64,000 bases of DNA, from contig OZ240206.1 of the NCBI GenBank assembly GCA_965197405.1, forward strand, positions 1,408,179-1,472,178, in the 5' to 3' direction. The notes under the pieces were generated by a model. The model ran no database searches. It was not told where the DNA came from and saw nothing but the letters and a program-made list of their open reading frames with translations. The first letter of the stretch is position 1; each line of letters starts with the position of its first letter. Source of the DNA: Dehalococcoidia bacterium. Lineage in GTDB: Bacteria > Chloroflexota > Dehalococcoidia > Lucifugimonadales > JAGWBF01. This document shows, piece by piece, positions 1 to 51,624 of this stretch. The position numbers were made by a program, and so were the translations under genes.

Positions 1-1188
1 AACCCGATGCACCCAAGGATAGTCCTCCTGCAACTCTTGGACCCGAATCGTCGATGCTTCCTGAACGCCACGCTTGATGCTGTCGTAATGAAGAGCAAAT
101 TCATGACTGGAATGCTGGTTGACGGTCTGTTCAGCAGCTTCCCGTAGAGCGGCAAGAAACGACCTTGGGCTAACCAACCCCTCCGTATCAGCCAAGTGGT
201 TAGGGATCCAAGTGTAAGGGAAACCTCGTTTGGGCCCACGGCCCATCCAGGGCCCTGCTAATTTGCGAAACAACTTCCGCTGCTGTGCCTCCCCAAGCAA
301 ATCGCGCTTCATTTGGAATACTGGCTGGGCGCCCACCTTACTAGAGTCCCAATAATCGCCACCAAGAAAGTGACGGATAAGGTCGCCATATTCACCATTC
401 GCAAGGTAATGCCAAAGCAATCCATAGAGTTCCCGGCGCGGCCAATTCAACCGCACAGTTGACGAAAGCACATTAGCGGCATCGGAGAAATTGGCTACCT
501 CAGTTTCATCGAGTTGGTCAGAACGGAGGAAAACCTTTACACGCAATCTGCGGTAAGAACGCATTTCAAGCGCGACCTGAAGCAAACCGCGAATCGCCCG
601 GTTCATGGCCCTCCAATCATCGGAACAGCGGTCCAAAGCATCGAACAAAATGAGAAAGTAAATTTTCTGCTGATCAAACTCCTCGTCCCGCTTATAAAAC
701 AGCCGGTCAATAATTTCCGGGTTGTCGTTCACGTATGCCACCCGGTCTGACCAAGAGTCTAGGTGATGAAGGGGATGAGCTTCGGTAGCCAGATGCCAAG
801 AGAGGACCGTCCGCCAAATAATTCGAGGCTCAATGCCATTTCCTTCCAGATGTTGCAGGACGTCCTTACTGGGGTAGTGGTCCGGCTCTGGATTAACGCC
901 AAAGCCTGTATGAACCTCAGTATCCGAGTTCAACGCCGACCTTCGGGAAACTATGCCAAATAATTGACGTACTTCCTCGCTCTGGAGCGCCCTCCACCAG
1001 AAAGTCTTACCAGCCCCTCGCATAGCGGTAATCACCATGTTGTTCGGGTCAAGAGCCCTTACATGGGACGGCGGAAAGTACACTTCTTGAACGAGAGGCG
1101 GTCCACCGTGACTTGTACCTTGAGGCAAACCGGCAAGCGCCTTGCGAACCGATTCAATGCATTCAGGATTCGTGTAGGTTTTCATCAT
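1..1188 (-). CDS. STAND/NACHT-like P-loop NTPase; 5' end complete, 3' end runs off the window (396 codons visible)
   Basis: My own reverse-strand translation: ATG at 1188-1186 and no stop down to base 1. It is absent from the supplied ORF track because no stop lies in the window. Walker A 'AMRGAGKTFWW' about 55 aa in; Walker B-like 'IYFLILFDALDRC', as in NACHT/STAND NTPases. Overlaps the upstream gene by 26 nt. Confidence 0.6.
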   Translation of the reverse strand, partial: MMKTYTNPECIESVRKALAGLPQGTSHGGPPLVQEVYFPPSHVRALDPNNMVITAMRGAGKTFWWRALQSEEVRQLFGIVSRRSALNSDTEVHTGFGVNPEPDHYPSKDVLQHLEGNGIEPRIIWRTVLSWHLATEAHPLHHLDSWSDRVAYVNDNPEIIDRLFYKRDEEFDQQKIYFLILFDALDRCSDDWRAMNRAIRGLLQVALEMRSYRRLRVKVFLRSDQLDETEVANFSDAANVLSSTVRLNWPRRELYGLLWHYLANGEYGDLIRHFLGGDYWDSSKVGAQPVFQMKRDLLGEAQQRKLFRKLAGPWMGRGPKRGFPYTWIPNHLADTEGLVSPRSFLAALREAAEQTVNQHSSHEFALHYDSIKRGVQEASTIRVQELQEDYPWVHRV

Positions 1189-1498
1189 GCACCTCAAAAT
1201 ATGTCACGGTGCCCTCGTACAACCCATCAAAACGCTCGAAGAATTCCTCGTATGCGCTGGCCGCAATGCCGAAATCGGAATCAACCAATGAGGTACCAGC
1301 AGCAAGCTCCGTCGACCATTTGATAACCAACGGAGTATGGGGTGCATCGCTATTATCCAAGTCGAATGAGAACTCGTCAACGTTAATGCTTACAGGGTCT
1401 ATTTCGTCGTAAAGATAGTCCCGAAACAGGTGCCAAGCCCTCTCTTTCAAATTGTTTAAATATGTCGAGGTGTCCAGGAAAGGAGTCAGTGCAGACAC
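1163..1498 (-). CDS. small acidic protein (111 aa), unknown function, third gene of the operon
   Basis: ORF in the track. Rich in D/E. Starts 21 nt after the upstream gene's stop, and its 3' end overlaps the NTPase start by 26 nt. No motif I recognise. Confidence 0.5.
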   Translation of the reverse strand: MSALTPFLDTSTYLNNLKERAWHLFRDYLYDEIDPVSINVDEFSFDLDNSDAPHTPLVIKWSTELAAGTSLVDSDFGIAASAYEEFFERFDGLYEGTVTYFEVHDENLHES

Positions 1499-1519
1499 AA
1501 CCGAAAGGCTTTCCCGAAT

Positions 1520-2479
1520 CTACGGAGCCAAACCTAAACGCTGCCAATGACGGAAAAGAATTTCGTAGTCCGTCCAGGTGCTCTCCGAATCTGTAAGGAA
1601 CAAGAAGACATGAGCACCAAGGTCAGTAACCGCAGAAGCTGCTATATCGTTTAGTCCGCTACGACTCTCCACCAGAATAACCGTAGGCGAATATTTCTCT
1701 TCAAGCCGGGACAGCATGCGCTCCAGACGCATGGTCCAACTCTCACCGGAATCCATGAAAACTCTTCCCAATTTGGGGAGATACTCCCCCGGCTCGCATC
1801 CATGCGCAGGTACCACCCGGACATCTCCTTCCAAATTTTGGGCCCACTCTGGGGCACCAACCATAGAGGCGATGACCTGGTCACTCTGTCCTACCAAATC
1901 CTCTACGAACCAGTCGGTAACACCGTACTCGGGCTGAGTTGAGGATTCAAGCATTGCTGAAGATAAACCGGGCGATTCCAAGTCAAGGTCAACGACCATT
2001 ACATCCGCCCCTTTACTAGCTAAGTACCACGCGAGAACCGCTGCAGTAGTGCTGCGCCCAACTCCGCCCTTGACCGAAAACAACGTGAAGCGAGATGCAC
2101 CTTCCAAAGAATCGGTGGCACGGATAGTCCCCCATGCCTGACCAGTCACCAGTCGGTCAACCAAATACACATTCTGGTATATTTCAAGCGCGTTATTGGA
2201 AAGTTCGCCAAGAACTTCAACGTCAGAATACAGAACTGCCGAGTCAGACGAACTTGCACGTGGACCCAGAACGGCAGCTAAATCCTTGGCAAACCCTTGC
2301 AGGTTCTGCTGTATTTCTTCGGAATCTTCGAAAACGTCAGACACAGCGATATGCAATATACCAAACAGGTCGCGTACCAAGAAGATGCGGTCCACGCCAT
2401 CCGGAAGGCCCCCGGCTTTTCCCAAAAGCTCCTCGACACGTCCCAAAAGGCTATCGAATGAAACGAAGCTTAGGCTCAT
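1520..2479 (-). CDS. ParA/MinD-like ATPase with variant deviant Walker A 'KGGVGRST' and a ~130-aa N-terminal extension
   Basis: 'FSVKGGVGRSTTAAVLAWYLASKGADVMVVDLDLESPG' is the ParA/MinD deviant Walker A context, with Arg where the canonical GK[ST] Lys sits. 'ILVESRSG' is a Walker B-like strand. The start overlaps the upstream gene's stop (ATGA at 2476-2479). Confidence 0.75.
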   Translation of the reverse strand: MSLSFVSFDSLLGRVEELLGKAGGLPDGVDRIFLVRDLFGILHIAVSDVFEDSEEIQQNLQGFAKDLAAVLGPRASSSDSAVLYSDVEVLGELSNNALEIYQNVYLVDRLVTGQAWGTIRATDSLEGASRFTLFSVKGGVGRSTTAAVLAWYLASKGADVMVVDLDLESPGLSSAMLESSTQPEYGVTDWFVEDLVGQSDQVIASMVGAPEWAQNLEGDVRVVPAHGCEPGEYLPKLGRVFMDSGESWTMRLERMLSRLEEKYSPTVILVESRSGLNDIAASAVTDLGAHVFLFLTDSESTWTDYEILFRHWQRLGLAP

Positions 2480-2898
2480 AACAACCCCACCATTTGCGCC
2501 TTCTTCAAAAGGTTAAGCACTTTATTTGCTGCATCGCGGTGCGCGACAGTTTCGCTCTCGGTGATGCCCTGTTGGTGAGCATATCGGTCGTGCTCGGTCC
2601 AGTTGGCGAACGGCACACCCTTAGGCAAATTTGTAACATACCAACTTCCAACACGTCCTTGAGCGAATGACTGGAATTCTGGCCAAAGCTTGTTCACATG
2701 TCTTCGGTATTTGAATTTCTTAGGACTACCAGATGCATCAAGCTGCATACCCAATTTTGCCATCACAGCTTTCAAACCACATTCGACGCTAATCCCGTAT
2801 AGATGATCGGCGTTAGCCCACCGTGAATTGAGAAAAAGCATTTCCGCATCTACCCAGTGACGGCTATTAGCGTCCTTAAAATCCGCAGAGCGTGCCAT
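2476..2898 (-). CDS. small all-helical protein, HEPN-like (tentative), first gene of the operon
   Basis: 140 aa. Pattern 'HWVDAEMLF...NADHLYGISVECGLKA...YRRHVNKLW...HDRYAHQQGITESETVAHRDAANKVLNLLKK' resembles the HEPN helical layout, but no clean Rx4-6H motif is present. GGAGG lies 9 nt upstream of the ATG. Confidence 0.45.
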   Translation of the reverse strand: MARSADFKDANSRHWVDAEMLFLNSRWANADHLYGISVECGLKAVMAKLGMQLDASGSPKKFKYRRHVNKLWPEFQSFAQGRVGSWYVTNLPKGVPFANWTEHDRYAHQQGITESETVAHRDAANKVLNLLKKAQMVGLL

Positions 2899-3146
2899 CC
2901 TGGCTTGCCTCCAAATGAATTTTCACTATCAAACTCGCAAGAGGGCACCGATTCCCATACAGTAACACAGTAACCAAATCCATAAAAGGCATTCGCTCAA
3001 GCGAATCGTTTAAGAGTAGGATGCCAGCAGCAATGACATGACCTTACCCTGAAGTTAGTACCAATGGCTAGTAGGCCAACATCTTTGAAATGATGACTGA
3101 CTGGTTTATTCTGTCAAGCGGCTTTGCACCAAAAGTCGAGTTTGCT

Positions 3147-3184
3147 CGTGACTTTTAGTTCAGGTTGGTGACTTTTGATTCAAG
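3147..3184. promoter_or_regulatory. two direct repeats GTGACTTTT(A/G)(G/A)TTCA(G/A)G spaced 20 bp; possible operator
   Basis: 'cgtgacttttagttcagg' (3147-3164) and 'ggtgacttttgattcaag' (3167-3184) lie in the divergent intergenic region, between the four-gene operon and a small ORF. Confidence 0.2.
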
Positions 3185-3214
3185 TGATGTACTGGAGAAA
3201 GGAGTGAGGTAGCT

Positions 3215-3454
3215 ATGTCAGAAGCTAAGCAACCCGAGCTAGAAGAAGGGGAAATTAGAGAAACAATGTGGTCTATAGTTGACGGTCGCTTGGTGGCTTC
3301 AATTCCCGACTTCGTTCACAAGCATACTTATACCAATCAAGAAGTAAGTCGGCTAATAGACTCCATGCAGTCCCGTGTATGTACGATGCACGGTCACTTG
3401 TTGGTGGCCTTGCAGTTAGTATCACAACTTGTGTCTGAGTTGGGTTACAGGTAA
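3215..3454 (+). CDS. small hypothetical protein (79 aa)
   Basis: Strong RBS 'GGAGAAAGGAGTGAGG' just upstream of the ATG. No recognisable domain. An antisense ORF (3273-3566) with its own GGAGG competes, so the coding strand is uncertain. Confidence 0.3.
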   Translation: MSEAKQPELEEGEIRETMWSIVDGRLVASIPDFVHKHTYTNQEVSRLIDSMQSRVCTMHGHLLVALQLVSQLVSELGYR

Positions 3455-3566
3455 ATCGGGCTTCAAGGGATTTCTCATCATAAGGAACAATGTGATCCAG
3501 ATTCATCTTCGGATGGTGTCTCGACATAACGCACCTCCAGAACGTAGGTGCATTATAGCACACCAC

Positions 3567-4489
3567 TTAGTAACTATCTCAAATTAGCGAGGCTCCATAG
3601 GCGGCGGTACCAGATAAGGGCGCAAGCCAATTGAAGCAGGCCCAGGTAATTGGTGGGCTTCTTATCGTAGCGCACCAGTATCGCCCGGCACTTGGACAGC
3701 CAGCCCAGGGTGCGTTCCACCACCCACCGCCGGGCCGGGTGGGTTTTCTCGCCCGATTGGTCCAATTTCTCTTCGCCAATACGCCGGATATGAGGCTGGT
3801 ATCCGGCGTCGGCGACGGTCACGTGGCCGGTGGGATTGTCATACCCCTTGTCCAGGCACAGGTTTTGGACCCCTTCCGGCCGGTCCACCACTATGCTCTC
3901 CAGCGTCGGCCTAAGGAGTTTCGTATCGTGGACATTGGCTCCGGCCACCACCACGCTCAGTGGCCCGCCGGCCGCGTCGACCAGGATGCTCTTCTTGCTC
4001 CCAGCCTTGCCCCGGTCCGTGGGATTGCGTCCAATGGCGCCCCCCCAAAACGCGCTTTTCCCATGGAGCAATCGGCCGACTGCCATTCCCAGTTTACGCC
4101 GTCCAATTCCTGGCATTCTTCGATCAAGGCAGCCCAGATGCCATCCAGTACCCCACGCTCTACCCAACGCTGGAAGGTCCGGTGGATGGTGCTGTCATCC
4201 CCCAGTTCCTTGGGCAAGTGGTTCCATTGGCAGGAACTGCGCATACGGAAGATGACCCCTTCCAGCATCTTGCGCTGGTCCACCCTTTTGCGCCCCTTCG
4301 CCTTGGGCGGGTCCAACTCCAAAATCACGGGTTCGATTCGCTCCCACAGGCCATCGGATATTTCCCATATCGTTGGCAGAGTCTCGCTCTTTCCCATCAT
4401 CCACCACCACATGCGTTTCCCCTATCTTAACCGAACCCCCTACGTTTTCTCCCTTTCAGACCAATCCTATTTTGAGATAGTTTCTTAGT
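3567..4489 (-). mobile_element. IS5-family insertion sequence (two-ORF, frameshift type), copy 1
   Basis: Imperfect terminal inverted repeats 'cttagtaactatctcaaa' (left) and 'tttgagatagtttcttag' (right). Encloses an orfA/orfB transposase. A related copy lies at 17852-20024. Confidence 0.8.
3574..4412 (-). CDS. IS5-family DDE transposase, orfA (3957-4412) plus orfB (3574-4167), joined by a frameshift at a C7/G7 run
   Basis: orfA 'LWERIEPVILELDPPKAKGRKRVDQRKMLEGVIFRMRSSCQWNHLP' is the typical IS5/IS427-type N-terminus. orfB 'VVVAGANVHD...LCLDKGYD...RRWVVERTLGWL...RYDK' carries the DDE region. Confidence 0.8.
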
Positions 4490-5277: not shown

Positions 5278-7125
5278 CTAGAAATCTGGCCGGAAAGTGG
5301 CGTCAGCCGGGTAAGCGGCTATACTTGTGGGAAACAAGTATAACGGGGGCTGAGAATGCTGGGAGAGCGTTCGAACCAGAGAGGTCTTTGGGAAGCGGAT
5401 AGTTTGTATTTGGACCACGTGGGGCGTGATAGCTTCTACGGTATATTGGCCTCGTTGCGGGGCCAGTTGTTTCGAGACTCCGATTTCGCCGTGTTGTACT
5501 GCGCCGACAACGGGCGGGACAGCGTACCGCCCAGCCTGCTGGCTACCGTTTTGCTGCTACAGGCTCATGATCGGGTGAGCGACGCCGAGGCCAAGGCGAG
5601 GGCGGACTTTGACCTCCGCTGGAAGGTAGCCCTGGGGATCGAGGTGGAGGATAGGCCCTTCGCCAAGAGTACGCTGCAAGTGTTTCGTGCGGGGTTGATA
5701 CTGCACGACAAAGTGCGGGAGGTATTCGAGCGTAGTCTGAAATTGGCGCGTGAATCAGGATACCTCAAGGGGAAACGCATGAAGGTGGCCTTGGACACGA
5801 CCAACATCCTCGGCCGCGGCGCTGTGAAGGACACCTACAATCTGCTGTCGGACGGGATCGTCCGGCTGGCGCGAGCGCTGGCGCAGCTAAGGGGAATCAG
5901 CGTTGGGGAATGGGCGAAGAGCCAGGGATACGCGCGTACCTGGCTTCCAGCGTCAAAGGAGAGGCGGCCATAGACTGGGCCGACCGGCAGGCCCGGGCAG
6001 CGCTGTTGGCTGGGATTGTGGAAGACGCGGACCGGCTATTGGAGTTGTCGCGGCAGGCGCAGGGGGAATTGGCAGAAGACAGCTCTGAGCATCAGCGGAT
6101 TGTGGCCGCGTCGGAACTGCTGGGCCAGTTGCTGCTACAGGACGTGGAACGGACTGAAGGCGGAGCGGACTTGAGGGATGGGGTGAGCCGGGACCGCATC
6201 TTGTCGGTGCATGACCCGGAGATGCGCCACAGCCACAAGAGCAGCAGCCGACGGTTCGATGGACACAAGGCGGCGGTGGTGGTGGACACCGACTCTCAGT
6301 TGATCACTGCGGTGGACGTATTGCCCGGCAATGCTGCGGACAGTCTGGGCGCGCTGGAACTGGTGGAACAGAGCGAAGCGAGCACCGGGATACCGGTGGA
6401 GGAGGCCATGGGTGATGCTGCGTACGGGGGTGGCGATACTCGCCAGACCTTCGCCGATGCGGGACGCAGGCTGGTGGCCAAGACGCCAGGGCGTCCCAAC
6501 CGGACTCATTTTCCCAAGGACGACTTCCGGATTGACTTTGGAGTCGGGCTCCTGCACCTGTCCGGCGGGGAATGTTACCCGAACCATGCTGCCAACGAGG
6601 AAACGAAACGACCATTTGGACCGGACCTATAGTTTCTTCCGATTCGATGCGGCGGTTTGTGGAGCGTGCCAGCTGCGGCCCCAGTGCGTTGCGGCGGGAC
6701 CGGGCACAGGCCGGACGGTGCGGCTGCATCCCCAGGAAACGCTATTGCAGCAGGCCCACGCCTTACAGCAGAGTGAGGCCTTTACCGGATACCGTAGACG
6801 CCGTGTGGTCGTTGAGCATCGGTTGGCGCGGCTGGTCCAGCTCGGAATCCGCCAGTCCCGCTACTTCGGACGCGCCAAGACACTATTCCAGCTGTACCTG
6901 GCGGCTACGGTCGCTAATCTGACCCTGGTGGCCGCCAAAGCCGGCATGACCGGTGAAACCGGCTCCGGTCCAAGTTCCGACAGCATCCTGGTAACTCGCA
7001 TCGTTAGCTCCGCCGCCAATACCGGTGCCGCGTGGCTCAGGCAAATTTGGACACTCACTTTGCTCGCGCCGGTCTTACTGCCACATTACCCCTTCCCTAC
7101 AAGGGGTTTCCGTCCGAGTTTCTAG
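5278..7125 (+). mobile_element. IS1182-like (IS5-superfamily) element, degenerate
   Basis: Imperfect terminal inverted repeats: 'ctagaaatctggccggaaag' at 5278 and 'gtttccgtccgagtttctag' ending at 7125. The transposase is broken over three frames. Confidence 0.65.
5356..7125 (+). pseudogene. IS1182-like transposase, disrupted by two frameshifts (ORFs 5356-5973, 5910-6632, 6331-7125)
   Basis: N-terminal 'DSVPPSLLATVLLLQAHDRVSDAEAKARADFDLRWKVALG' (transposase N-terminal domain). Middle 'GHKAAVVVDTDSQLITAVDVLPGNAADS...GDAAYG' (DDE). C-terminal 'YRRRRVVVEHRLARLVQLGIRQSRYFGRAKT'. Each part is in a different frame. Confidence 0.75.
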
Positions 7126-8007
7126 GAGTCTGCCGATCAGCAGCGTCAACAGCACGAAGGCGATCACGCGGGCCGCGATAAGCCCCTCCTTCGTCTCCTC
7201 GTGCGCGGCTCGCTCCTTCCGGTATGCCTCCTCCATCTCCTCATACGCCCGTCCGCTGGCGGACGCGGACTCCCTGACATCATCCCTCTCCCGCTCCAAC
7301 TCCGATGCTCGCCCATCCAACTCCCACACCGTCCTCTGAAGCTTGTCCTCCCGAACAAGGGACCGGCGAAGCAACTCATCGTCGCTCACGTACTCCGGCC
7401 CCTCCAGCCGCACGTAGACCCGGCGTCCCTCCCTGCGGACCTCGATCTTTCCCCTGCGAATCATCCGGTCGAGGGTTGAGACGGAGACCTCCATCTCCCG
7501 AACAGCCTCCGCCTTCGTCACCCAGCGGACCTGCTCATCCATCGCTCTTTTCCTCGCCCTGCGACTGACGCCTCCGCCTCCAGTTGAACAGACGCAGACC
7601 CCGCCCCTCAGCGTCGGGCGCATCCGCCGACTCTCCTGGCCCCCGGCTTCGTCCTCGGGCTTCTGTGCCGCCTCCAAGGCCTCCACGCGCTGCGTCAGAC
7701 TCTCCACCAGCGCCGCCAGCTCGTCCGCCACTTCGAGCGCCACCTGTATCCTCGCCTCCAACCTGTCTAGCGGTGTCGTCCTCTCCCACTCCGGATCGTC
7801 CAGGTTGGCCATGAGCCGCCGGACAGCCAGATTCATCCTGCCCGTCAACCGCTCCCGGCGCAGAGCCAGCGCCACCGTTTTCCGGTTCACACCCAGGAGG
7901 GCTGCCGTCTTGCGTTGTCCTTCCCGCTCGACCAGCCACTCAACGACCCACTTGAGGTCGGGCCTATCGTCGTCGGCCCTAGATGCCCGTCCGTCACTCA
8001 TTTCCAT
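7075..8007 (-). CDS. HTH (excisionase/MerR-like) DNA-binding protein with coiled coil and C-terminal hydrophobic segment; the 3' tail is IS-derived
   Basis: Two HTH-like segments ('TAALLGVNRKTVALAL' and 'VTKAEAVREMEVSVSTLDRMIRRGKIEV'). The last ~17 codons (7075-7125) lie inside the IS1182-like right end. Confidence 0.5.
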   Translation of the reverse strand: MEMSDGRASRADDDRPDLKWVVEWLVEREGQRKTAALLGVNRKTVALALRRERLTGRMNLAVRRLMANLDDPEWERTTPLDRLEARIQVALEVADELAALVESLTQRVEALEAAQKPEDEAGGQESRRMRPTLRGGVCVCSTGGGGVSRRARKRAMDEQVRWVTKAEAVREMEVSVSTLDRMIRRGKIEVRREGRRVYVRLEGPEYVSDDELLRRSLVREDKLQRTVWELDGRASELERERDDVRESASASGRAYEEMEEAYRKERAAHEETKEGLIAARVIAFVLLTLLIGRLLETRTETPCREGVMWQ

Positions 8008-8620: not shown

Positions 8621-10261
8621 TCAGCCCGGACAGCGGCAGTCGTGGGGATTCCGGCTCCCACAGTGGACGCCACGACGGTCCCAGTATCCCTGTGTGGGAC
8701 AGAGCGGCCCGGCAGGACACGAAGATGGGCAGCGCCGGCTCATCCGGGAAGCGGTGCGCACGTAGGTGTCCTCGACATCCTCGGTGTCCACGACGAAGAG
8801 GGTGACGGGGTACGGCGGCTGGTCGTCTCTGTGCTCGTTGGACCAGTAGTAGCTCTCATAGGGGTCCAGGCGGGCGATAACTCCCCTGGGGTGACGGGCG
8901 CGTAGCTCGTACTCGAAGTAGAACGGTATCTGAAGGCCCTGGTCGGTCATCTGCCCCACAGCGTCGGGTGCGATGGCCGAATCGCCCCAGTTGTAGGCCC
9001 GGTCGGCCCTGGCGGTAGGGACGGACCACACTAGCTCGCTGTCGGGGTCGGCCCTCCCCTCGGCCTGAAGCTTCGTTAGGAACCACGTGATGCCGTCGGC
9101 GTGCTTCGTCTGCCTCGCCCATGTCTCGATGCGGTGGCCCACGTACCGTCTGCGGCCCTGTTTGTCTCTCGTGAGGGCGGTGCTCCAGATGCCCTGCGTC
9201 GTGGGCAGCTGGGCGCGGTCCCTGTGGGTGACGTAGCGTATGCCCTCGGCGGACAGCGTGTAACGTGTGTCTCCGCGTTGTCCCTGCCGCTCGACGAGAC
9301 CCCAGGTATCGACGAGGCTTCGCATCATCTGGCTGACCCGGCCCTCGGAGACTCCCAGCCAGAGGGCAAGGTGCTCACGGGGGATCATCGGGTGGTCGGT
9401 GATGAGGTCCAGCGTCCGCTTCTCAGACGGGCTGACGCCGAAGGCCGGCGCAGCCCGTGCCATCCGCTCGGGACGGGGCAGCGACGCCCGCTTCCGCTCC
9501 GGCGACTGGGTGCGATGCCTTCCGCCGGGGCTGCCGTGCGAACTCACGTCCTCCAGCGTGCGGTACGTGCTGCCGACCCACGAGTATTTGTGCCAGAGGC
9601 GAAGGTCCCGTCTTTCGAGCACGTTCCTCGACTCCACGGCGACGAAGTAGTCTTCAAGGTTCAGTCGCTCGCAGAACCTCGTCGTCAGCCCCTGCTCCCA
9701 CACGCTGGGCGTCAGGATCAGGACGGCACCGGGGCGGCGACTGTAGTCGTACCCCGCGAAGGCCCTCAGCCGGTCGTAGAGTGACCGGCGCCGCAGGGCC
9801 GGACCCTGCCGCACCACGCCGAACTTGCGGCCGTCGTGGAGGATGATGGTGGCGTCAAAGCGGCCCCGGCGGTGGAACTCCACCTGAGACCGGAGCGAGC
9901 CGGTCCCTGGTGACAGGGACGCGGCGAGGCGGTAGACGGTGGCCACCGCGTCCATCCGGCGGATCAGCAGCGTAAGCCATTCCCTGGACACCGAGTAGCT
10001 GCGCACGAAGTCCGAGGACGTATCGAAACCGAGGATCCCGGCGGCTTCGCCGATGCCCTCGGCGGTCAGGTAGTGTCGCCCGCTTGAAGGCAGGTGGGCG
10101 GTGCCATGACTGACGCGCCCAACGATGCCGCCGTCCAAGAGGCCGCTCAGGGCACGGTGAGTGGTTGCGTGAGCTTCGCCGAGGATGACCGCCAGTTCCG
10201 CCGTGTCGACGAACGGCAGCCGGCTGAGGCAGTGGAGTAACTGCTGGACGGAGATTGCCAT
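8621..10261 (-). CDS. replication-relaxation-like protein with winged-HTH modules
   Basis: Two wHTH-like stretches ('LAVILGEAHATTHRALSGLLDGGIV' and 'LALWLGVSEGRVSQMMRSLVDTWGLV'). 'IAPDAVGQMTDQGLQIPFYFEYELRARHP' resembles the Replic_Relax core. The C-terminal ~60 aa look aberrant, which may reflect a frameshift. Confidence 0.5.
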   Translation of the reverse strand: MAISVQQLLHCLSRLPFVDTAELAVILGEAHATTHRALSGLLDGGIVGRVSHGTAHLPSSGRHYLTAEGIGEAAGILGFDTSSDFVRSYSVSREWLTLLIRRMDAVATVYRLAASLSPGTGSLRSQVEFHRRGRFDATIILHDGRKFGVVRQGPALRRRSLYDRLRAFAGYDYSRRPGAVLILTPSVWEQGLTTRFCERLNLEDYFVAVESRNVLERRDLRLWHKYSWVGSTYRTLEDVSSHGSPGGRHRTQSPERKRASLPRPERMARAAPAFGVSPSEKRTLDLITDHPMIPREHLALWLGVSEGRVSQMMRSLVDTWGLVERQGQRGDTRYTLSAEGIRYVTHRDRAQLPTTQGIWSTALTRDKQGRRRYVGHRIETWARQTKHADGITWFLTKLQAEGRADPDSELVWSVPTARADRAYNWGDSAIAPDAVGQMTDQGLQIPFYFEYELRARHPRGVIARLDPYESYYWSNEHRDDQPPYPVTLFVVDTEDVEDTYVRTASRMSRRCPSSCPAGPLCPTQGYWDRRGVHCGSRNPHDCRCPG

Positions 10262-11770: not shown

Positions 11771-14700
11771 ATGGCAGAAGCTGGGAGAAAATCGTTGGCA
11801 GCCGTCGAGGACTACCTCGACGACCTGCGCAAGATACGCGCCTCTGGCGGCGGCACCGCCGAAACGTCCCACTACCCGCCGCTTACCAACCTGCTGAACG
11901 CCGTGGGCGGCGCGCTGAAGCCCAAGGTGTTCTGCATCAACCAAGTGGCAGAGCAGGGCGCTGGACACCCGGACTTGGGCCTCTTCGCCGCCAACCAGGT
12001 GCAGAAAGGCCAACCCAAGCAAGGGCAGAGCCAGAAGCCGGAGTGCGGGGTGGTGGAGGTCAAGCCCGCCGGCGACGACGCCTGGCTCACCGCCGACAGC
12101 TCTCAGGTCAGCCGCTATTGGGGCCTGTACCGTCTGGTGCTGGTCACCAACACCCGCGACTTCGTGCTGCTGGGCGAGGACTCGCAGGGCCAGCCCTCCA
12201 AGTGGGAGACCTTCCGGCTGGCTGACGCCGCCGACTTCGAGGCGAAGCTGCGACACCCCCGCGCCTTCGCCAACAGCGTCGGCCCGGCGCTGGCCGAGTA
12301 CCTGGGCCGCGCCCTGTCCCACCGGGCCACGCTGGCCGAACCCCGCGACTTGGCCCGGCTGCTGGCCTCCTATGCCCGCGATGGGTTGGCCCGGGTCGAG
12401 GCTTCCGGCGACGCATCGTCGCTGAACGCCGTGCGGTCGGCGCTGGAGGAGGCGCTGGGCGTCCGATTCGAGGGCGAGCGCGGCGTGGCCTTCTTCCGCT
12501 CGACGCTGGTGCAGACCCTCTTCTACGGCGTCTTCTCCACCTGGGTGCTGTGGGCGCGGCAGACTCCGGCTCCAGCGGGCCCCTTCGACTGGCGCACCTC
12601 CGTCTGGCACCTGCGCGCGCCCATCATGCAGGCCCTGTTTCAGCAGGTGACCAGCCCCGGACAGTTGCAGTCGCTGGACCTGGTGGAGGTGCTGGACTGG
12701 ACGGCGGCGGCCCTGGACCGGGTGGACCGCGACGCCTTCTTCGCCAGGTTCAACGAGGGCGAGGCGGTGCCCTACTTCTACGAGCCGTTTCTGGAAGCCT
12801 TCGACCCGGCCCTGCGCAAGCATCTGGGCGTCTGGTACACCCCCCAGCCGAGGTGGTGCGCTACATGGTGGCCCGCGTTGACCGCGCCCTGAAGGATGAC
12901 CTGGGCATCGAGGACGGGCTGGCCGCCGAGAACGTCTACGTCCTCGACCCCTGCTGCGGCACCGGGGCCTACCTGGCCGAGACGCTGAAGCGCATCGCCG
13001 CCAACCTGCTGGGCAAGGGCCTGGGAGCCCTCACCGGGGCGCGGGTGAAGCAGGCCGCGACGCAGCGGGTGTTCGGCTTCGAGATAATGCCCGCGCCCTT
13101 CGTGGTGGCCCACCTGCAGGTCGGCCTGATCATGCAGGCCCTGGACGCGCCTCTGTCCGAGGACGTCAACGAGCGGGCCGGGGTGTTCCTGACCAACGCG
13201 CTCACCGGCTGGGAGCCGAGGGCGCAGAAGCCCCTGCCCTTCCCGGAGTTGGAGGAAGAGCGGGACCGGGCCGAGCGGGTGAAGCAGGATACGCCGGTGC
13301 TGGTTATCCTGGGCAACCCGCCCTACAACGGCTTCGCGGGCGTGGCAATTGAGGAAGAGCAACGATTATTGGAAGCATATAGATCCGCGAAGCGCGTGGA
13401 TATTCCCGATACCAGAGCGCTTCACGACCTGTACGTGCGATTCTTCCGCATGGCGGAGCGGCGCATCGCGGAGAAGACCGGGCGGGGCGTCGTCTGCTTT
13501 ATCTCCAACTACTCCTGGCTGGACGGGCTGTCGTTCGCGGGAATGCGTGAGCATTATATGGGTGCTTTCGACGCCATTCGCATTGACTGTCTCAACGGAG
13601 ATGTTCGTAAGGGCGCAAAAACGCCTGACGGAGAACCTGATCCGAGTGTTTTCACCGTGCCACAGCAGTCGCTTGGTATTCAAGTAGGCACTGCTATAAC
13701 CACGCTGGTCCGCAAGGCTGAACACAGGCCAACCGAAACCATTAGTTTCCGCCATCTGTGGGGGCAATCCAAGCTCGATGCACTCAAGGCCACGGCGGAA
13801 TCAGAACCCATGGCACTTTATGTATCCATTGAACCAGTTCTCCCATTGGGCTTGCCCTTTGCCCCTACAGTTGTCAGTGAAGAGTGGCATGAGTGGCCGA
13901 CACTGCTAGAGCTATTCCCGACCTATTTCTGCGGCGTTAACACTAATCGGGACAAGTTGCTCGTAGAGATCGATCTCGAACACCTTAAATCCCGCATAAC
14001 TGATTATTTCAGCCCCGATTTGAGCCATGAGGAAATCGCCCGTCTTTACCCTACCGCGATGAAAACTACGGCACGATTCGACGCGCAGGCGGTACGCGAT
14101 ACTCTTCTCAAGCGTGGTGGCCCAGTGGATGCAGGGTTCGTCCGTTATTGTCATCGCCCCTTCGACACTCGTTGGCTGTACTGGGAAGCAGATACAAAGC
14201 TCCTTAACGAGAAACGGGCTGACTATATGCCACACGTGTTCCCCGAGAACATTTGGCTATCTGCTGTTCCTCGCTTACGGAAGGACGAAACTGAGCCACA
14301 AGCTGTGATTACGTCGCGCATGGCTTCTCTTCACTTGATTGAATAGGGCGCCAATATGTTCCCCGCGTGGCTCCGCGATGAGGGGTTGGCGCTGGACGGG
14401 GGCGGGGCGCAGCGTCGGCCCAACCTGTCGGCGGCGGCGCAACGCTACCTCGACCGGCTGGGGTTGGGGGTAGAGGAGCTGTTCCACCACGCGCTGGCGG
14501 TGCTGCACGACCCGGCCTACCGGGCGGCCAACGCCGGGGCGCTGCGGATGGAGTGGCCGCGCATACCGCTGCCCGGCTGGCCCGATGGCGACGCGCCTGG
14601 CGCTGCCGGGGAGCTGCGCGCCTCCGCAGCGCGGGGCCGGGAGTTGGCCGCGCTGCTGGACCCGGAGACGCCGGTGGCGGGGGTGACCGCCGGGGCGCTG

Positions 14701-15117
14701 CGCCCGGAGCTGGCGGCCATCGCCGTCCCGTCCACCGCCGACGGACGCAACATGAGCGGCGACGACTTCGCGCTGACTGCTGGCTGGGGCCACTTCGGGA
14801 CCGGAGACGCCGTGATGCCCGGCCAAGGCCGCGCCGTGGAGCACCCCTACACCGCAGACGAGCGGGAGGCACTGGGCGAGGCCGACGGCGTTCTCGGAGA
14901 TGCCACCTTCGACGTTCATCTGAACGACAACGCGCAGTGGAGCAACGTCCCCGACGCCGTCTGGAACTACAAGCTGGACGGCTACCAGGTTCTCAAGAAG
15001 TGGCTCTCATACCGGGAAAGCAAAGTCCTGGGTCGCAGCCTGCTGCCGGAGGAGGTGCAGCACTTCACGGACACCGCCCGCCGGATAGCGGCTATCCTAT
15101 TGGGCACGGGGACTTGA
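11771..15117 (+). pseudogene. MmeI-like type IIG restriction-modification enzyme (PD-ExK nuclease + gamma-class N6-adenine MTase + type ISP-like C-terminal domain), disrupted twice
   Basis: N-terminal 'GHPDLGLF...GVVEVKP...YRLVLVTNTRDFVLL' (PD..ExK). MTase motifs 'VLDPCCGTGAY' and 'ILGNPPYNGF'. C-terminal 'VWNYKLDGYQVLKKWLSYRE'. Frame change at the C6 run 12840-12845 ('GVWYTP|PAEVVRYMV'). The in-frame TAG at 14344-14346 separates ORFs 12550-14346 and 14356-15117, which share a frame. Confidence 0.75.
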
Positions 15118-16495: not shown

Positions 16496-17980
16496 ATGCC
16501 AGAACTGCGCATCTATCAGCAGAATCTCTTTGAGCGGACGGTGTCCTGTGTGCAACCCGCCCAGGCGCGGGCGATGCTCCAGTTGCCGACTGGCGGAGGC
16601 AAGACCCACATCGCTGGGGCGTTACTGAGACACTGGCTGCACAACGGGCGCAAGGCAGTCTGGCTGACCCACCGCGTGGAGTTGGCTGAACAAACTCGCC
16701 GAATGCTGACGGAGGCCGGAATATCTGCTATTAACCTGAGTTGGCCGCTGGGCGAAGGTGCTCCGTTTATTTCCAACGGTGTAGTTATATTGATGGCCCA
16801 GACCGTCGGCAGACGCACCGGCCGGATGCAAATTTGGGGCCAATACGATAGCGGCGACATCCTAGTTATAGATGAGGCGCATCACGCCACTGCCAAGGGG
16901 TGGGAGCGGGCGATAAGCCAGTGGCCAGGCCGGGTTATCGGCCTGACCGCTACCCCTTGGCGACTGTCCCAGACCGAGGGGTTTGACCACCTATTCAGAG
17001 AACTACTCTGCGGCCCCCAGGTCAGCGAGCTTCAAGCCGATGGCTATCTGTGCCAAACCCGGGTACTCATGCCCAGGCCAGAGGAGGTTATACGTGGCGG
17101 CGCAGTCAACGCTCTCGGTGAATACTCCGAATCCGGAATCGAGCAGGCCAATCGGGACCGCCCCGACATAATGACCGCGGGTGCATTCCGCTACTGGGAT
17201 CTCCATGCCAAGAAACGCCAGACCATCATCTACGCCGTATCGCAGGATCACGCCCGCAACCTGGCAGCGCTGTTCAACGGCGCCGGCATTCCCGCCAATG
17301 TGATGCTCAGCGACACGCCTCCCCAGGAACGGGCCGAGATTATCGAATCCTTTGGTGACGGCACCCTTCGCGTTTTGGTCAACGTCGCGGTCGCAACCGA
17401 GGGGTTTGACCTACCCGACGCCTCCTGCGTTGTAATCACGCGGCCCACCATGAGCCTGGCGTTGTACCTGCAAATGGTAGGCCGAGGCATGAGGCCAAAA
17501 GCCAACGGGGAGGACTGCCTGATCTTGGACCTCGCAGGCAACGCAGATATTCACGGGTTGCCTGAGGACAACAGGAAGTGGACGCTGGCGCCTCGCTTTA
17601 ACGACGCCGATGGTAAAGGTCCAATTGTAAGGTGCGAGAAATGCGAAGCGGTTTCGCCTGCGGCCAGCCATTTTTGCGTCTTCTGCGAGTATCCGTTCGG
17701 CAAGGACTGCCCTCGGTGCGGCACATGGCGGGCCTGGGAACGCTGGCGGTATGAAAATCACTGCGGCAACCAGCACGATTTGGTCTGCGATCTCTGCCAC
17801 TATGACGCTCACATTCAGTCGGAATTGCCTCTCACTGGCGAACTGAGGAGACTAAGAAACTATCTCAAATTGTGGTTCCAAATTGTAGTTAATGTGAGGG
17901 AGTTGTCGCTAGTAGTCAGTCATGTTTGGAATCGAAGGGATAGAGGCGGTGTAATTTGGTTCGGGCATCCTGAGTCTTGA
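16496..17980 (+). CDS. RadD-like SF2 DNA helicase with C-terminal Cys-rich zinc ribbons; native sequence ends at ~17851, and the last ~43 codons are IS-derived
   Basis: Helicase motifs 'LQLPTGGGKTHIA', 'LVIDEAHHAT', 'GLTATPWR' and 'ATEGFDLPDASCVVITRPTMSLALYLQMVGRGMRP'. Zinc-ribbon region 'CEKCEAVSPAASHFCVFCEYPFGKDCPRCG...CDLCHYDAH'. The IS5-type terminal repeat starts at 17852. Confidence 0.7.
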   Translation: MPELRIYQQNLFERTVSCVQPAQARAMLQLPTGGGKTHIAGALLRHWLHNGRKAVWLTHRVELAEQTRRMLTEAGISAINLSWPLGEGAPFISNGVVILMAQTVGRRTGRMQIWGQYDSGDILVIDEAHHATAKGWERAISQWPGRVIGLTATPWRLSQTEGFDHLFRELLCGPQVSELQADGYLCQTRVLMPRPEEVIRGGAVNALGEYSESGIEQANRDRPDIMTAGAFRYWDLHAKKRQTIIYAVSQDHARNLAALFNGAGIPANVMLSDTPPQERAEIIESFGDGTLRVLVNVAVATEGFDLPDASCVVITRPTMSLALYLQMVGRGMRPKANGEDCLILDLAGNADIHGLPEDNRKWTLAPRFNDADGKGPIVRCEKCEAVSPAASHFCVFCEYPFGKDCPRCGTWRAWERWRYENHCGNQHDLVCDLCHYDAHIQSELPLTGELRRLRNYLKLWFQIVVNVRELSLVVSHVWNRRDRGGVIWFGHPES

Positions 17981-34801: not shown

Positions 34802-34937
34802 ATGTTACCTCCTTCATGCAGCTTCATAGGCACGTAGCTTCATAGCGCGCCAGTTCTCTTCGCCGTTCATCGAGCCGACGCGAGAATTATCAGTTATCAC
34901 AGCTCCCAATCGCATAGATATGTGCTAGTATAGACTC

Positions 34938-35144
34938 ATGCACGGCAGGGAATTCGTAAGGCGAGCCCGGCGATATGCCCGGAAGAACGGGGTTGACTTC
35001 GACTTCGACCCCAGCAAGGGCAAAGGCAGTCATGGACAAATCAGGATGGGCAACCGCCGCACCACTGTCCCGCATAGCGAGATTAATCCCAGGACCCTGG
35101 CGTCCATGCTTAGAGACCTCGGAATTGATAGGAGGGACTTCTAG
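34938..35144 (+). CDS. hicA: type II toxin HicA
   Basis: 68 aa, 'KGKGSHGQIRMGNRRTTVPH' HicA core. Directly abuts hicB. Confidence 0.8.
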   Translation: MHGREFVRRARRYARKNGVDFDFDPSKGKGSHGQIRMGNRRTTVPHSEINPRTLASMLRDLGIDRRDF

Positions 35145-35582: not shown

Positions 35583-35597
35583 AGCCAGCCGCCCACC

Positions 35598-36989: not shown

Positions 36990-37135
36990 GATACCTCCTC
37001 GATACTTCCTTCAGAAGAAGTTGAGATAGGATTGGGGGCTTCTTTAGATTGCAGCGATCATAATTCTGAGAGGAGAGCCGGGAGAGGCCCTGCCGCTAGG
37101 GCGTGTTCACACTTCCTCGTCGCTCCCCCCACACT

Positions 37136-51623: not shown

Positions 51624-51624
51624 C

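What the first reader, a model, noticed from the sequence alone, without database searches (positions are those of the whole stretch)
1..2898. Four-gene coupled operon (HEPN-like / KGGVGR ParA-like ATPase / acidic small protein / STAND-like NTPase): candidate undescribed NTPase-based conflict system
**Seen in the sequence.**
- Four minus-strand genes are packed as one unit: a 4-nt ATGA overlap at 2476-2479, a 21-nt gap at 1499-1519, and a 26-nt overlap at 1163-1188.
- The block is visibly AT-richer than most of the window.
- An IS5-family copy sits about 670 bp upstream.
- Gene 1 (140 aa) has a HEPN-like helical layout.
- Gene 2 is a ParA/MinD core behind an unassigned ~130-aa N-terminal domain.
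- Gene 3 is a 111-aa highly acidic protein.
- Gene 4 has Walker A 'GAGKT' and a NACHT-type 'LILFDALDRC' Walker B, and continues beyond the window.

**Established knowledge.** STAND/NACHT NTPases (Avs, bNACHT), HEPN domains and accessory ATPases are recurrent building blocks of antiphage and conflict systems. Such systems sit in AT-skewed, IS-flanked islands.

**Inference.** This particular four-gene combination does not match any named defence system I can recall, so it may be new.
Basis: partly seen in the sequence, partly recalled or inferred. Interest (0 to 1): 0.8.

Follow-up and report, generated by a model that had tools for sequence, protein, structure and literature searches.

The report
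Broken copy of PDC-M28 defence candidate
The block is a three-gene (not four-gene) cassette already listed in the PADLOC database as the untested phage-defence candidate PDC-M28, and in this genome a single stop-codon mutation cuts its middle gene in two.

Summary
The gene count is wrong. "Gene 2" (1520-2479) and "gene 3" (1163-1498) are in the same frame, separated only by TAG at 1520-1522. More than 100 homologues are single 423-449 aa proteins that cover both parts. The closest orthologue (92% identity) has CAG at that codon.

The cassette is therefore A (140 aa), B (437 codons, amber-interrupted) and C (first 396 of about 490 codons). All three match the PADLOC models PDC-M28A/B/C (E = 1e-49, 1e-102 plus 6.5e-17, and 2e-134). 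PDC-M28 is one of 145 untested candidates from Payne et al. 2024, so the cassette is catalogued, not undescribed.

- A has a HEPN fold (AbiV-like) but no Rx4-6H motif.
- B is a ParA-like ATPase whose P-loop lysine is replaced by arginine (NCBIfam AAA_KGGVGR).
- C resembles ORC/Cdc6 and BREX BrxC AAA+ ATPases, not NACHT/STAND proteins.

A-B-C order is kept in 71 of 83 loci across many phyla, often beside DISARM, restriction-modification and other defence genes. B and C are fused in four loci. A defence function is plausible but untested, and this copy is probably inactivated.

The parts
2476..2898 (-). PDC-M28A: 140-aa basic (pI 9.6) all-helical protein with a HEPN-like (AbiV-like) fold. No canonical Rx4-6H motif.
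   Evidence: The ORF is. It matches PADLOC PDLC04558 at E = 1.1e-49 over profile positions 2-137 of 138. The AlphaFold model has pLDDT 95. The top PDB Foldseek hits are all HEPN proteins, with probability 0.85-0.99 and TM 0.45-0.6. The conserved residues are listed.
1523..2479 (-). PDC-M28B, codons 1-319: an unassigned N-terminal domain (about residues 1-125) followed by a ParA/MinD-like (SIMIBI) ATPase core. Its Walker A is KGGVGRST, with the P-loop Lys replaced by Arg.
   Evidence: It matches PADLOC PDLC04559 at E = 1.2e-102 over profile positions 3-323 of 438. It scores 167 bits on NCBIfam NF047398 AAA_KGGVGR, above the cut-off of 90. It also matches Pfam CbiA and ParA.
1520..1522 (-). In-frame amber codon (TAG) at codon 320 of PDC-M28B. 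It is a nonsense mutation relative to CAG (Gln) in the 92%-identical orthologue and AAG (Lys) in the 84-87% orthologues.
   Evidence: The 30 nt on either side are nearly identical to L002 and L001.
1163..1519 (-). PDC-M28B, codons 321-437 plus the stop: the conserved acidic C-terminal domain. The source genome annotates this as a separate 111-aa ORF starting at GTG 1498.
   Evidence: It is in the same frame as 1523-2479. It matches PADLOC PDLC04559 profile positions 336-424 at E = 6.5e-17. Homologues are single 423-449 aa proteins covering 95-100% of the joined sequence. dN/dS against L002 is 0.34, the same as upstream of the stop.
1..1188 (-). PDC-M28C, first 396 of about 490 codons (the 3' end lies beyond the window). 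It is an ORC/Cdc6/BrxC-like AAA+ P-loop ATPase with Walker A GAGKT and Walker B LILFDALD, close to the NCBIfam Sll1717 family.
   Evidence: It matches PADLOC PDLC04561 at E = 1.9e-134 over profile positions 6-391 of 480. It scores 69.5 bits on NF047389 (74.0 for the full-length orthologue), below the cut-off of 75. The model of the 92% orthologue P0243 has pLDDT 87. Foldseek top hits are Cdc6 1fnn, ORC2 1w5s and BrxC 9zll/9zdx.
3574..4412 (-). Context: an IS5-family insertion sequence with its transposase in two overlapping frames, 676 bp upstream of gene A.
   Evidence: It matches Pfam DUF4096 (E = 2e-22) and DDE_Tnp_1 (E = 2e-15).

Best explanation
**What it is.** Positions 1-2898 hold one copy of the three-gene cassette that PADLOC catalogues as phage-defence candidate PDC-M28. 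The genes are A (HEPN-fold protein), B (ParA-like KGGVGR ATPase) and C (ORC/BrxC-like AAA+ ATPase).

**State of this copy.** A single C-to-T change (CAG to TAG, codon 320) cuts B into a 319-aa fragment and an orphaned C-terminal domain. This copy is therefore most likely a recently inactivated pseudo-operon. It lies in a decaying, IS-ridden defence and mobile-element island.

**Mechanism (inferred, not shown; about 0.3 for the specific scheme, about 0.6 that the family is an anti-phage or anti-plasmid system at all).**
- C binds nucleic acid through its AAA+ and winged-helix-like C-terminal modules and acts as the nucleotide-dependent sensor.
- B is physically coupled to C and is even fused to it in some lineages. 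It acts as a dimerising nucleotide switch or adaptor that hydrolyses slowly or not at all, because its P-loop Lys is Arg.
- On sensing an invader, the B-C complex releases or activates A, a non-canonical AbiV-like HEPN-fold effector. A then shuts down translation or RNA, as in abortive infection.
For: **Identity**
- PADLOC matches cover nearly the full profile length: PDC-M28A 1.1e-49, PDC-M28B 1.2e-102 plus 6.5e-17, PDC-M28C 1.9e-134.
- Payne et al. list PDC-M28 as a three-family cassette, CAS_00115, "Assign as candidate".

**One gene B**
- The two ORFs share a frame.
- 1293 homologue clusters were found; nearly all of the 120 listed are 423-449 aa and cover 95-100% of the joined sequence.
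- Orthologues have Gln or Lys at codon 320.
- The intact cassettes L001 and L002 have A 140 aa, B 438 aa and C 490 aa, with the same 4-nt A/B overlap and a B/C overlap (23 nt).

**Conserved unit**
- 71 of 83 loci have A-B-C colinear on one strand, and B-C are adjacent in 81 of the 83.
- 383 loci were found among 185,579 species representatives, across at least 10 phylum- or class-level groups.
- B-C are fused as single ORFs of 921-971 aa in L061, L068, L070 and L077.
- The same triplet lies on Enterobacter and Tistrella plasmids.

**Defence context**
- L002 lies beside a type I restriction-modification system.
- DrmMI is directly upstream in L069, and DrmA directly downstream in L051.
- Flanking ORFs of about 80 loci hit DISARM, type I and IIG restriction-modification, IetS, MADS, Hma, HEC-01/AriA, AbiLi and PDC-M07.
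- The window island holds type IIG restriction-modification fragments and a restriction-type helicase.

**Folds**
- A resembles HEPN proteins.
- One homologue has a Fic domain fused to an A-like domain, which gives a sub-threshold Pfam HEPN_AbiV match (E = 5e-5).
- C resembles ORC/Cdc6/BrxC.

**Conserved nucleotide-binding motifs**
- B: K137, G138-G141 and R142. C: G57, G59, K60, T61, D182 and D185.

**Recent mutation**
- dN/dS is 0.33 upstream of the stop and 0.34 downstream.
Against: - No experiment on PDC-M28 was found. A full-text search for the name gave 0 papers, and Payne et al. call the 145 candidates untested.
- A lacks the Rx4-6H motif that defines catalytic HEPN RNases and hits no Pfam HEPN model itself. 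Its effector role is therefore a guess.
- The neighbourhood evidence has no formal background control. Some loci, such as L001, show no obvious defence neighbour apart from a HigB toxin gene.
- No relative was found on viral contigs.
- An ORC-like ATPase plus a ParA-like ATPase is also what a replicon-maintenance module would contain.
- The TAG could be an assembly or consensus error, or a minority allele. Reads were not available.
- The 3' end of C lies outside the window. The source genome's own C product was not in the protein database (the best hit was only 92% identical), so its state is unknown.
Confidence: 0.8

Rival explanations
1. The cassette is a maintenance module of mobile elements, not an immune system. 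In this reading the ORC/Cdc6-like C acts as a replication-initiator-like or DNA-loading ATPase, the ParA-like B acts as a partition or positioning ATPase, and A is a small accessory or adaptor protein.
For: - C's best structural matches include the archaeal initiators Cdc6 and ORC2.
- B belongs to the ParA/MinD (SIMIBI) class.
- Copies occur on plasmids, including a conjugative IncF plasmid next to a tyrosine recombinase.
- The window copy lies near a Replic_Relax gene and IS elements.
Against: - B scores far below the cut-off of every ParA, MinD and RepA equivalog model (18-34 bits against 150-450). Its P-loop Lys is invariably Arg.
- No ParB-like partner was seen next to the cassette.
- Most of the 383 loci are chromosomal, single-copy and patchily spread over many phyla.
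- The cassette is found inside or beside DISARM and restriction-modification systems, and this embedding was the basis for its listing as a defence candidate.
- BrxC, a defence ATPase, matches C about as well as ORC does.
- The closest Pfam relative of A is an abortive-infection HEPN family.
Confidence: 0.12
2. The cassette in this genome is still functional. Either the TAG is a sequencing or consensus error or a minority allele, or the split B works as two polypeptides (the 319-aa ATPase plus a 111-aa C-terminal domain restarted at GTG 1498), or the amber codon is read through at a useful rate.
For: - The sequence downstream of the stop shows no extra decay: dN/dS is 0.34 against 0.33 upstream, with no frameshifts.
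- A GTG lies 21 nt after the stop, with a purine-rich stretch (GGGAAAG) before it.
- A and the visible part of C are intact.
Against: - None of the B homologues examined is split at this point. Nearly all of the 120 listed are 423-449 aa, and the few short entries are from short contigs.
- Equal dN/dS is equally well explained by a very recent mutation.
- The GTG and its upstream sequence are simply the conserved coding sequence of intact orthologues, so they are not evidence of an evolved restart.
- The surrounding island is visibly decaying: it has fragmented type IIG restriction-modification genes and split transposases.
- TAG is a normal terminator in this window.
Confidence: 0.12
3. One reading: a previously undescribed four-gene system built around a STAND/NACHT NTPase, with a separate small acidic protein.
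For: - The Walker B hhhhDxxD of C resembles STAND motifs.
- There is a weak Pfam NPHP3_N (NACHT-related) match at E = 0.09.
- No named, experimentally validated defence system in PADLOC matches.
Against: - All parts match PDC-M28A/B/C.
- The acidic ORF is part of B.
- C has no repeat sensor domain, and its closest folds are ORC/Cdc6/BrxC.
- The NPHP3_N score of 13 bits is far below the cut-off of 24.8.
Confidence: 0.02

Closest known systems
PADLOC phage-defence candidate PDC-M28 (Payne et al. 2024, bioRxiv 10.1101/2024.01.29.577857; cassette CAS_00115, FAM_01482>>FAM_02546>>FAM_01036)
   Same: All three proteins match its HMMs over nearly the full profile length, in the same order and on the same strand.
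   Different: In this copy B is interrupted by an amber codon and C runs off the window. PDC-M28 itself is only a prediction from "guilt by embedding", with no tested function or mechanism.
BREX BrxC and archaeal ORC/Cdc6 (initiator-clade AAA+ ATPases)
   Same: These are the best structural matches of C: Foldseek E = 9e-6 to 3e-4 with probability 1.0. The shared parts are the P-loop core, the helical lid and a C-terminal helical or winged-helix-like module.
   Different: TM-scores are only 0.27-0.37 and sequence identity is 10-13%. There is no sequence-level match to PDB chains. C is much shorter than BrxC, and no other BREX genes (PglX, PglZ, BrxL) belong to the cassette.
ParA/MinD/Soj family (SIMIBI-class deviant Walker A ATPases); NCBIfam NF047398 AAA_KGGVGR
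   Same: B has the deviant Walker A with the signature Lys (KGG), a DLD Walker A' and an overall CbiA/ParA core. It passes the AAA_KGGVGR cut-off.
   Different: The canonical P-loop Lys (GK[ST]) is Arg in every homologue aligned. The Walker B acidic residue is Glu in an ESRSG motif. There are extra N-terminal (about 125 aa) and C-terminal (about 115 aa) domains of unknown fold. B scores far below all ParA, MinD and RepA cut-offs.
HEPN superfamily, especially the AbiV-type abortive-infection HEPN (Pfam PF18728) and minimal HEPN proteins of MNT-HEPN pairs
   Same: A shares the four-helix HEPN-like fold. The six best probable PDB matches are HEPN proteins, and the AbiV structure 9bj7 is also hit. 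A Fic-fused homologue gives a near-threshold HEPN_AbiV match.
   Different: A has no Rx4-6H motif. Its conserved polar residues are R13, H14, D17, D31, E39, K43, H67, R105, Y106 and H120. A has no Pfam HEPN hit of its own, and the Foldseek E-values are weak (0.09-3).
STAND NTPase defence proteins (Avs, bNACHT)
   Same: C is a P-loop NTPase with an hhhhDxxD Walker B and lies in a defence-island context.
   Different: C has no NACHT or NB-ARC match and no TPR, WD40 or LRR sensor domain. It is only 490 aa, and its best folds are initiator-clade AAA+.

Membership tests
PADLOC PDC-M28 | Proteins matching the PDC-M28A, PDC-M28B and PDC-M28C HMMs | tested here: met
   A matches at 1.1e-49 (profile positions 2-137 of 138). 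B matches at 1.2e-102 (3-323 of 438) plus 6.5e-17 (336-424 of 438). C matches at 1.9e-134 (6-391 of 480).
PADLOC PDC-M28 | The three genes are adjacent, in the order A>>B>>C, on one strand | tested here: met
   The cassette definition FAM_01482>>FAM_02546>>FAM_01036 is. The same order is found in 71 of 83 loci.
PADLOC PDC-M28 | All genes are intact (a complete, potentially functional system) | tested here: not met
   B carries an in-frame TAG at codon 320. The last 95 or so codons of C lie outside the window and could not be checked.
PADLOC PDC-M28 | Demonstrated anti-phage activity | not testable with these tools
   The candidates are described as untested. No paper mentions PDC-M28 in its main text.
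NCBIfam NF047398 KGGVGR-motif variant AAA ATPase | Score at or above the curated cut-off (90 bits), with the KGGVGR motif present | tested here: met
   B scores 167.2 bits over residues 129-313. KGGVGR is at residues 137-142.
NCBIfam NF047389 P-loop ATPase, Sll1717 family | Score at or above the curated cut-off (75 bits) | tested here: not met
   The window fragment scores 69.5 bits. The full-length orthologues score 74.0 and 68.1 bits. This is a near miss, so C is a close relative rather than a member by the curated rule.
HEPN superfamily | Four-helix up-down HEPN fold | tested here: met
   The model has pLDDT 95. The top six probable PDB matches are HEPN proteins, with probability 0.85-0.99 and TM 0.45-0.6. 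The E-values are weak, so support is moderate.
HEPN superfamily | Conserved Rx4-6H catalytic motif at the start of the last helix | tested here: not met
   Column conservation in 101 homologues shows R105 invariant. The next His, at +3 (H108), is kept in only 57 of 101 sequences, and H120 lies 15 residues away.
HEPN superfamily | Match to a Pfam HEPN family model | tested here: inconclusive
   A itself has no Pfam hit at E <= 0.1. The A-like domain of the homologue P0427 scores 23.9 bits on HEPN_AbiV, against a cut-off of 27.1.
STAND / NACHT NTPases | A NACHT or NB-ARC NTPase module detectable by profile, plus a C-terminal repeat (TPR, WD40 or LRR) or other sensor domain | tested here: not met
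   The only hit is NPHP3_N at 13.4 bits, against a cut-off of 24.8. The 490-aa orthologue model has no repeat domain. The best folds are ORC/Cdc6/BrxC.
ParA/MinD partition or positioning ATPases | A KGGxGK[ST] deviant Walker A with the P-loop lysine, a score above the family cut-offs, and a ParB/MinE-type partner | tested here: not met
   The motif is KGGVGR[ST], with Arg invariant in the 15-sequence alignment. B scores 18-34 bits against cut-offs of 150-450. The flanking genes are A and C, not a ParB-like gene.
IS5 family insertion sequence (neighbour at 3574-4412) | A DDE_Tnp_1 transposase with a DUF4096 N-terminal part | tested here: met
   DUF4096 matches at 2.1e-22 and DDE_Tnp_1 at 1.8e-15, in two overlapping frames. 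Terminal inverted repeats were not examined.

The most novel reading that the evidence does not exclude
PDC-M28 may be a real immune system against phages or plasmids with a mechanism not yet described. In this reading an ORC/BrxC-like AAA+ ATPase and a ParA-like ATPase with an arginine-substituted P-loop work as one machine, and are fused into one polypeptide in some lineages. That machine senses invading DNA and controls a non-canonical, AbiV-like HEPN-fold effector lacking the usual RNase motif. The amber-cut copy in this window would then be a natural loss-of-function allele.
Probability: 0.35. Interest if true: 0.6.

Novelty: already known. Interest (0 to 1): 0.3.

Why it matters
**For the scan.** An apparently new four-gene system turns out to be a catalogued three-gene candidate with a nonsense mutation. 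It should not be counted as a discovery.

**For the field.** PDC-M28 is still only a prediction. The cassette is widespread: 383 of about 186,000 species representatives carry it, in many phyla and on some plasmids. It combines two ATPase types that have not been shown to cooperate in immunity.

- C has an ORC/BrxC-like fold.
- B has an invariant Lys-to-Arg P-loop.
- B and C are fused in four loci (Vicinamibacteria, Rhodothermales ×2, Longimicrobiales).
- A has an AbiV-like HEPN fold without Rx4-6H.
- Some loci lie next to DISARM genes.
- Culturable sources exist (Enterobacter and Tistrella plasmids).

Together these make the candidate easier to test and suggest which residues to mutate.

Tried and rejected
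- **Recovering the missing 3' end of C from the source contig.** Exact look-ups of the window's gene 2 and gene 1 products found no contig on record. The source's own C product is not in the protein database. The end of C was therefore described from the 92% orthologue in L002.
- **Sequence search of the A and C profiles against PDB chains.** Only chance-level hits appeared. The B profile matched only the Walker A region of ParA, ArsA and NifH-type proteins.
- **Literature.** "PDC-M28", "KGGVGR" and "Sll1717" gave no relevant paper. Two recent defence-discovery papers were checked and do not describe this cassette.
- **TAG recoding.** Rejected, because TAG ends 11 of 28 long ORFs in the window.
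- **Phage carriage.** No relative was found on viral contigs.
- **E. coli homologue.** None was found at DNA level.
- **Promoter and terminator scan of 1-3600.** The counts did not exceed the shuffled expectation. The TTGACA-16-CATCAT site at 3117-3090 is not treated as evidence.
- **An alternative first gene in the eight B-C-only loci.** Only one A remnant was found (L016). The others lack A.
- **The two 470-aa ORFs at 33392-37010.** They looked like possible repeats, but they are MmgE/PrpD-type paralogues with no DNA repeat.

Full report
**1. The observation**

The minus strand of 1-2898 carries these ORFs:
- 2476-2898: 140 aa.
- 1520-2479: 319 aa.
- 1163-1498: 111 aa, with a GTG start.
- An ORF starting at 1188 that runs off the window: 396 codons.

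The stated junctions are all present: an ATGA overlap at 2476-2479, a 21-nt spacer at 1499-1519 and a 26-nt overlap at 1163-1188. So are the stated motifs: KGGVGR at residue 137 of gene 2, and GAGKT and LILFDALDRC at residues 58 and 179 of gene 4.

The block is AT-richer than the rest of the window, at G+C 0.51 against 0.60. That is the 6th lowest of 306 windows of equal length. An IS5-type element lies 676 bp upstream of gene 1, at 3574-4412 (Pfam DUF4096 plus DDE_Tnp_1, split over two frames). Gene 3 is indeed acidic, with pI 4.05.

**2. The gene count is wrong**

Translating 1166-2479 in one frame gives 437 sense codons with a single internal stop. "Gene 2" and "gene 3" are therefore in the same frame, separated only by TAG at 1520-1522 and seven sense codons.

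Several results show they are one gene:
- They match consecutive parts of one PADLOC profile, PDC-M28B: positions 3-323 and 336-424 of 438.
- A database search with the joined sequence found 1293 clusters. Nearly all of the 120 listed are 423-449 aa and cover 95-100% of the query.
- At the stop position, the 92%-identical orthologue has Gln (CAG) and the 84-87% orthologues have Lys (AAG). The 30 nt on each side are almost unchanged.

TAG is an ordinary terminator in this window, since 11 of 28 long ORFs end in it. This is therefore a nonsense mutation and not recoding.

dN/dS against the closest orthologue is the same upstream (0.33) and downstream (0.34) of the stop. The change is therefore recent, or it is an assembly artefact that I cannot exclude without reads.

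**3. What the cassette is**

All three proteins match PADLOC-DB models of one candidate system:
- PDC-M28A: 1.1e-49.
- PDC-M28B: 1.2e-102 and 6.5e-17.
- PDC-M28C: 1.9e-134.

PDC-M28 is one of 145 "phage defence candidates" that Payne et al. derived from genes embedded in BREX, DISARM and type I restriction-modification systems. The authors call these candidates untested. Their supplementary table lists it as a three-family cassette, CAS_00115, "Assign as candidate PDC-M28". A full-text search found no paper that mentions it in its main text.

NCBIfam already has a model for the ATPase domain of B, NF047398 "KGGVGR-motif variant AAA ATPase". B scores 167 bits against a cut-off of 90. NCBIfam also has a model close to C, NF047389 "P-loop ATPase, Sll1717 family". 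C scores 69.5 bits, and the full-length orthologue scores 74.0, just under the cut-off of 75.

**4. Conservation and context**

Intact orthologous cassettes in L001 and L002 have A 140 aa, B 438 aa and C 490 aa, with the same 4-nt A/B overlap and a B/C overlap (23 nt).

A scan of one genome per species found 383 loci. They span Acidobacteriota (Vicinamibacterales), Binatia, Latescibacterota, Entotheonella, Spirochaetia, Alpha- and Gammaproteobacteria, Chloroflexota, Rhodothermales, Longimicrobiales and others.

I mapped home-made HMMs of A, B and C onto 82 loci plus the window:
- A-B-C is colinear on one strand in 71 of 83.
- B-C occur without A in 8. Only one of these has an A remnant.
- A-B occur without C in 2.

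In four loci from three lineages, B and C form one uninterrupted ORF of 921-971 aa. This gene-fusion argument suggests the two ATPases act together.

The neighbourhoods point to defence:
- L002 lies next to a type I restriction-modification system.
- L069 has DISARM DrmMI directly upstream, and L051 has DrmA directly downstream.
- The largest flanking ORFs of about 80 loci hit many PADLOC families: DISARM, type I and IIG restriction-modification, IetS, MADS, Hma, HEC-01/AriA, AbiLi and PDC-M07.

I could not run a background control, so this is supportive rather than a formal enrichment.

In the window itself, the cassette sits in an island that contains:
- two split IS5-type elements;
- a Replic_Relax gene;
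- fragments of a type IIG restriction-modification gene (12550-15114);
- a restriction-type helicase (16496-17977).

No relative was found on viral contigs. Twenty plasmids carry relatives of B. The Enterobacter bugandensis IncF plasmid pSurvcare220 and Tistrella mobilis pTM2 carry the full triplet, annotated only as hypothetical protein / AAA family ATPase / hypothetical protein.

**5. The three proteins**

*Protein A*
- The model is confident (pLDDT 95) and all-helical.
- Its best probable PDB matches are HEPN proteins: 1wol, 4nqf, 1ufb, 1o3u, 2q00 and 2hsb, with probability 0.85-0.99 and TM 0.45-0.6. Sacsin HEPN, Csm6' and AbiV follow further down. The E-values are weak (0.09-3).
- Sequence support is indirect. 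A profile search of 1.84 billion representatives found 1102 relatives, almost all stand-alone proteins of about 140 aa.
- One relative, P0427, has a Fic domain fused in front of an A-like domain. That domain scores 23.9 bits on Pfam HEPN_AbiV, against a cut-off of 27.1.
- A has no Rx4-6H motif. Its invariant or near-invariant polar residues are R13, H14, D17, R26, N29, D31, Y34, E39, K43, H67, R105, Y106 and H120.
- "HEPN-like" therefore holds at fold level. RNase activity is not implied.

*Protein B*
- The ParA/MinD-type core spans residues 127-313.
- The canonical P-loop Lys is replaced by Arg in all 15 aligned homologues. The Walker B region reads ESRSG.
- The N-terminal domain (about 125 aa) and the C-terminal domain (about 115 aa) have no match.

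*Protein C*
- I modelled the 92% orthologue P0243 (pLDDT 87).
- The best matches are Cdc6 (1fnn), ORC2 (1w5s, 1w5t) and the BREX ATPase BrxC (9zll, 9zdx), at E = 9e-6 to 3e-4. Generic AAA+ proteins follow.
- Walker A (G57, G59, K60, T61) and Walker B (D182, D185) are invariant in 105 homologues.
- There is no repeat sensor domain and no NACHT match. NPHP3_N scores 13 bits, below its cut-off. "STAND-like" is therefore true only in the loose sense of a related P-loop class.

**6. How it most likely works**

Shown:
- It is a conserved three-gene unit.
- Two nucleotide-binding proteins have conserved motifs and are sometimes fused.
- A small HEPN-fold protein is encoded first and is translationally coupled to B.
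- The cassette is frequently adjacent to defence genes.

Inferred (about 0.6 for a defence role, about 0.3 for this particular scheme):
- C is the nucleic-acid-sensing AAA+ module.
- B is a dimerising nucleotide switch or adaptor with slow or no hydrolysis, because of the Lys-to-Arg change.
- A is the effector, restrained or activated by B-C, and acts on RNA or translation as AbiV-type proteins do.

In this window the amber codon removes B's conserved C-terminal domain, so the copy is probably inactive.

**7. Rival explanations**

- *A mobile-element maintenance module (ORC-like plus ParA-like), about 0.12.* B's degenerate P-loop, the lack of a ParB-like partner, the chromosomal and patchy distribution, and the embedding in DISARM and restriction-modification loci all argue against it.
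- *A still-functional copy (sequencing error, split protein or readthrough), about 0.12.* This cannot be excluded without reads and experiments.

**8. Verdict**

The cassette is, however, already catalogued as PDC-M28, and the copy here is damaged. Novelty is "already known", though known only as an untested candidate.

Interest is modest at 0.3. The residual value is that PDC-M28 remains mechanistically unexplored. This analysis supplies fold assignments, key residues, fusion evidence and culturable sources for testing it.

Noticed in passing
window 12226-15117 (+), mainly ORFs 12550-14343 and 14356-15114: These are fragments of a type IIG restriction-modification enzyme. The 598-aa ORF matches only profile positions of about 314-823 of about 1090, and the next ORF matches about 1005-1043. 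This looks like a degraded gene, which fits a decaying defence island.
   Followed up: partly
window 16496-17977 (+): This is a ResIII/Helicase_C helicase with PADLOC matches to type IV restriction enzyme and PbeA models (E = 2e-22 and 2e-19). It may be another defence remnant near the cassette.
   Followed up: partly
window 5356-7125 (+): This is a second transposase gene, broken into three overlapping ORFs (DUF772, DDE_Tnp_1, DDE_Tnp_1_6). It lies next to an HTH_17 protein (7078-8007, weak mad1-like hit) and a Replic_Relax/MarR protein (8624-10261). Together these look like mobile-element debris.
   Followed up: partly
window 51610-54648 (+): This is a 1013-aa type I restriction enzyme R subunit (HSDR_N, SWI2_SNF2, ResIII, T1R_D3-like). 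It marks a second defence locus about 50 kb from the cassette. Its M and S partners were not looked for.
   Followed up: no
window 25053-26555 (+): This is a 501-aa protein made almost entirely of ankyrin repeats. From my own knowledge, such proteins are typical of bacteria that live with eukaryotic hosts such as sponges. That fits the kinds of uncultured lineages that carry the closest cassettes.
   Followed up: no
L002 10001-11317 (protein P0121): The closest intact orthologue of B (92% identity) reads NGGVGR instead of KGGVGR. It has therefore lost the signature lysine of the deviant Walker A, which is invariant in the other 15 aligned sequences.
   Followed up: no
L061 7878-10793, L068 7986-10751, L070 7965-10760, L077 8001-10820: B and C are fused into single ORFs of 921-971 aa in Vicinamibacteria, Rhodothermales (twice) and Longimicrobiales genomes.
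   Followed up: yes
L045 6060-10756: This is a tandem arrangement: a partial A, a frameshifted B, and then a complete A-B-C. It looks like a duplicated cassette with one decayed copy.
   Followed up: no
protein P0427: This is a 425-aa protein with a Fic/DOC domain (residues 121-226) fused in front of an A-like domain (residues 289-420). It is the only clear fusion among the 150 best A relatives. It might be a gene-calling artefact, or it might hint that A-like domains pair with toxin domains.
   Followed up: partly
window 1-1188 (gene C) and the source genome: The products of genes 1, 2 and 3 are in the protein database with a 3,377,400-bp source contig. No 100%-identical product of gene C was found; the best hit was 92% identical. 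Gene C may therefore be disrupted, unannotated or cut in the source record.
   Followed up: partly
window vs L002/L001, genes A, B, C: dN/dS between close orthologues is fairly high for all three genes and highest for A (0.58-0.62, against 0.27-0.46 for B and C). This fits fast evolution of the small HEPN-fold protein.
   Followed up: partly
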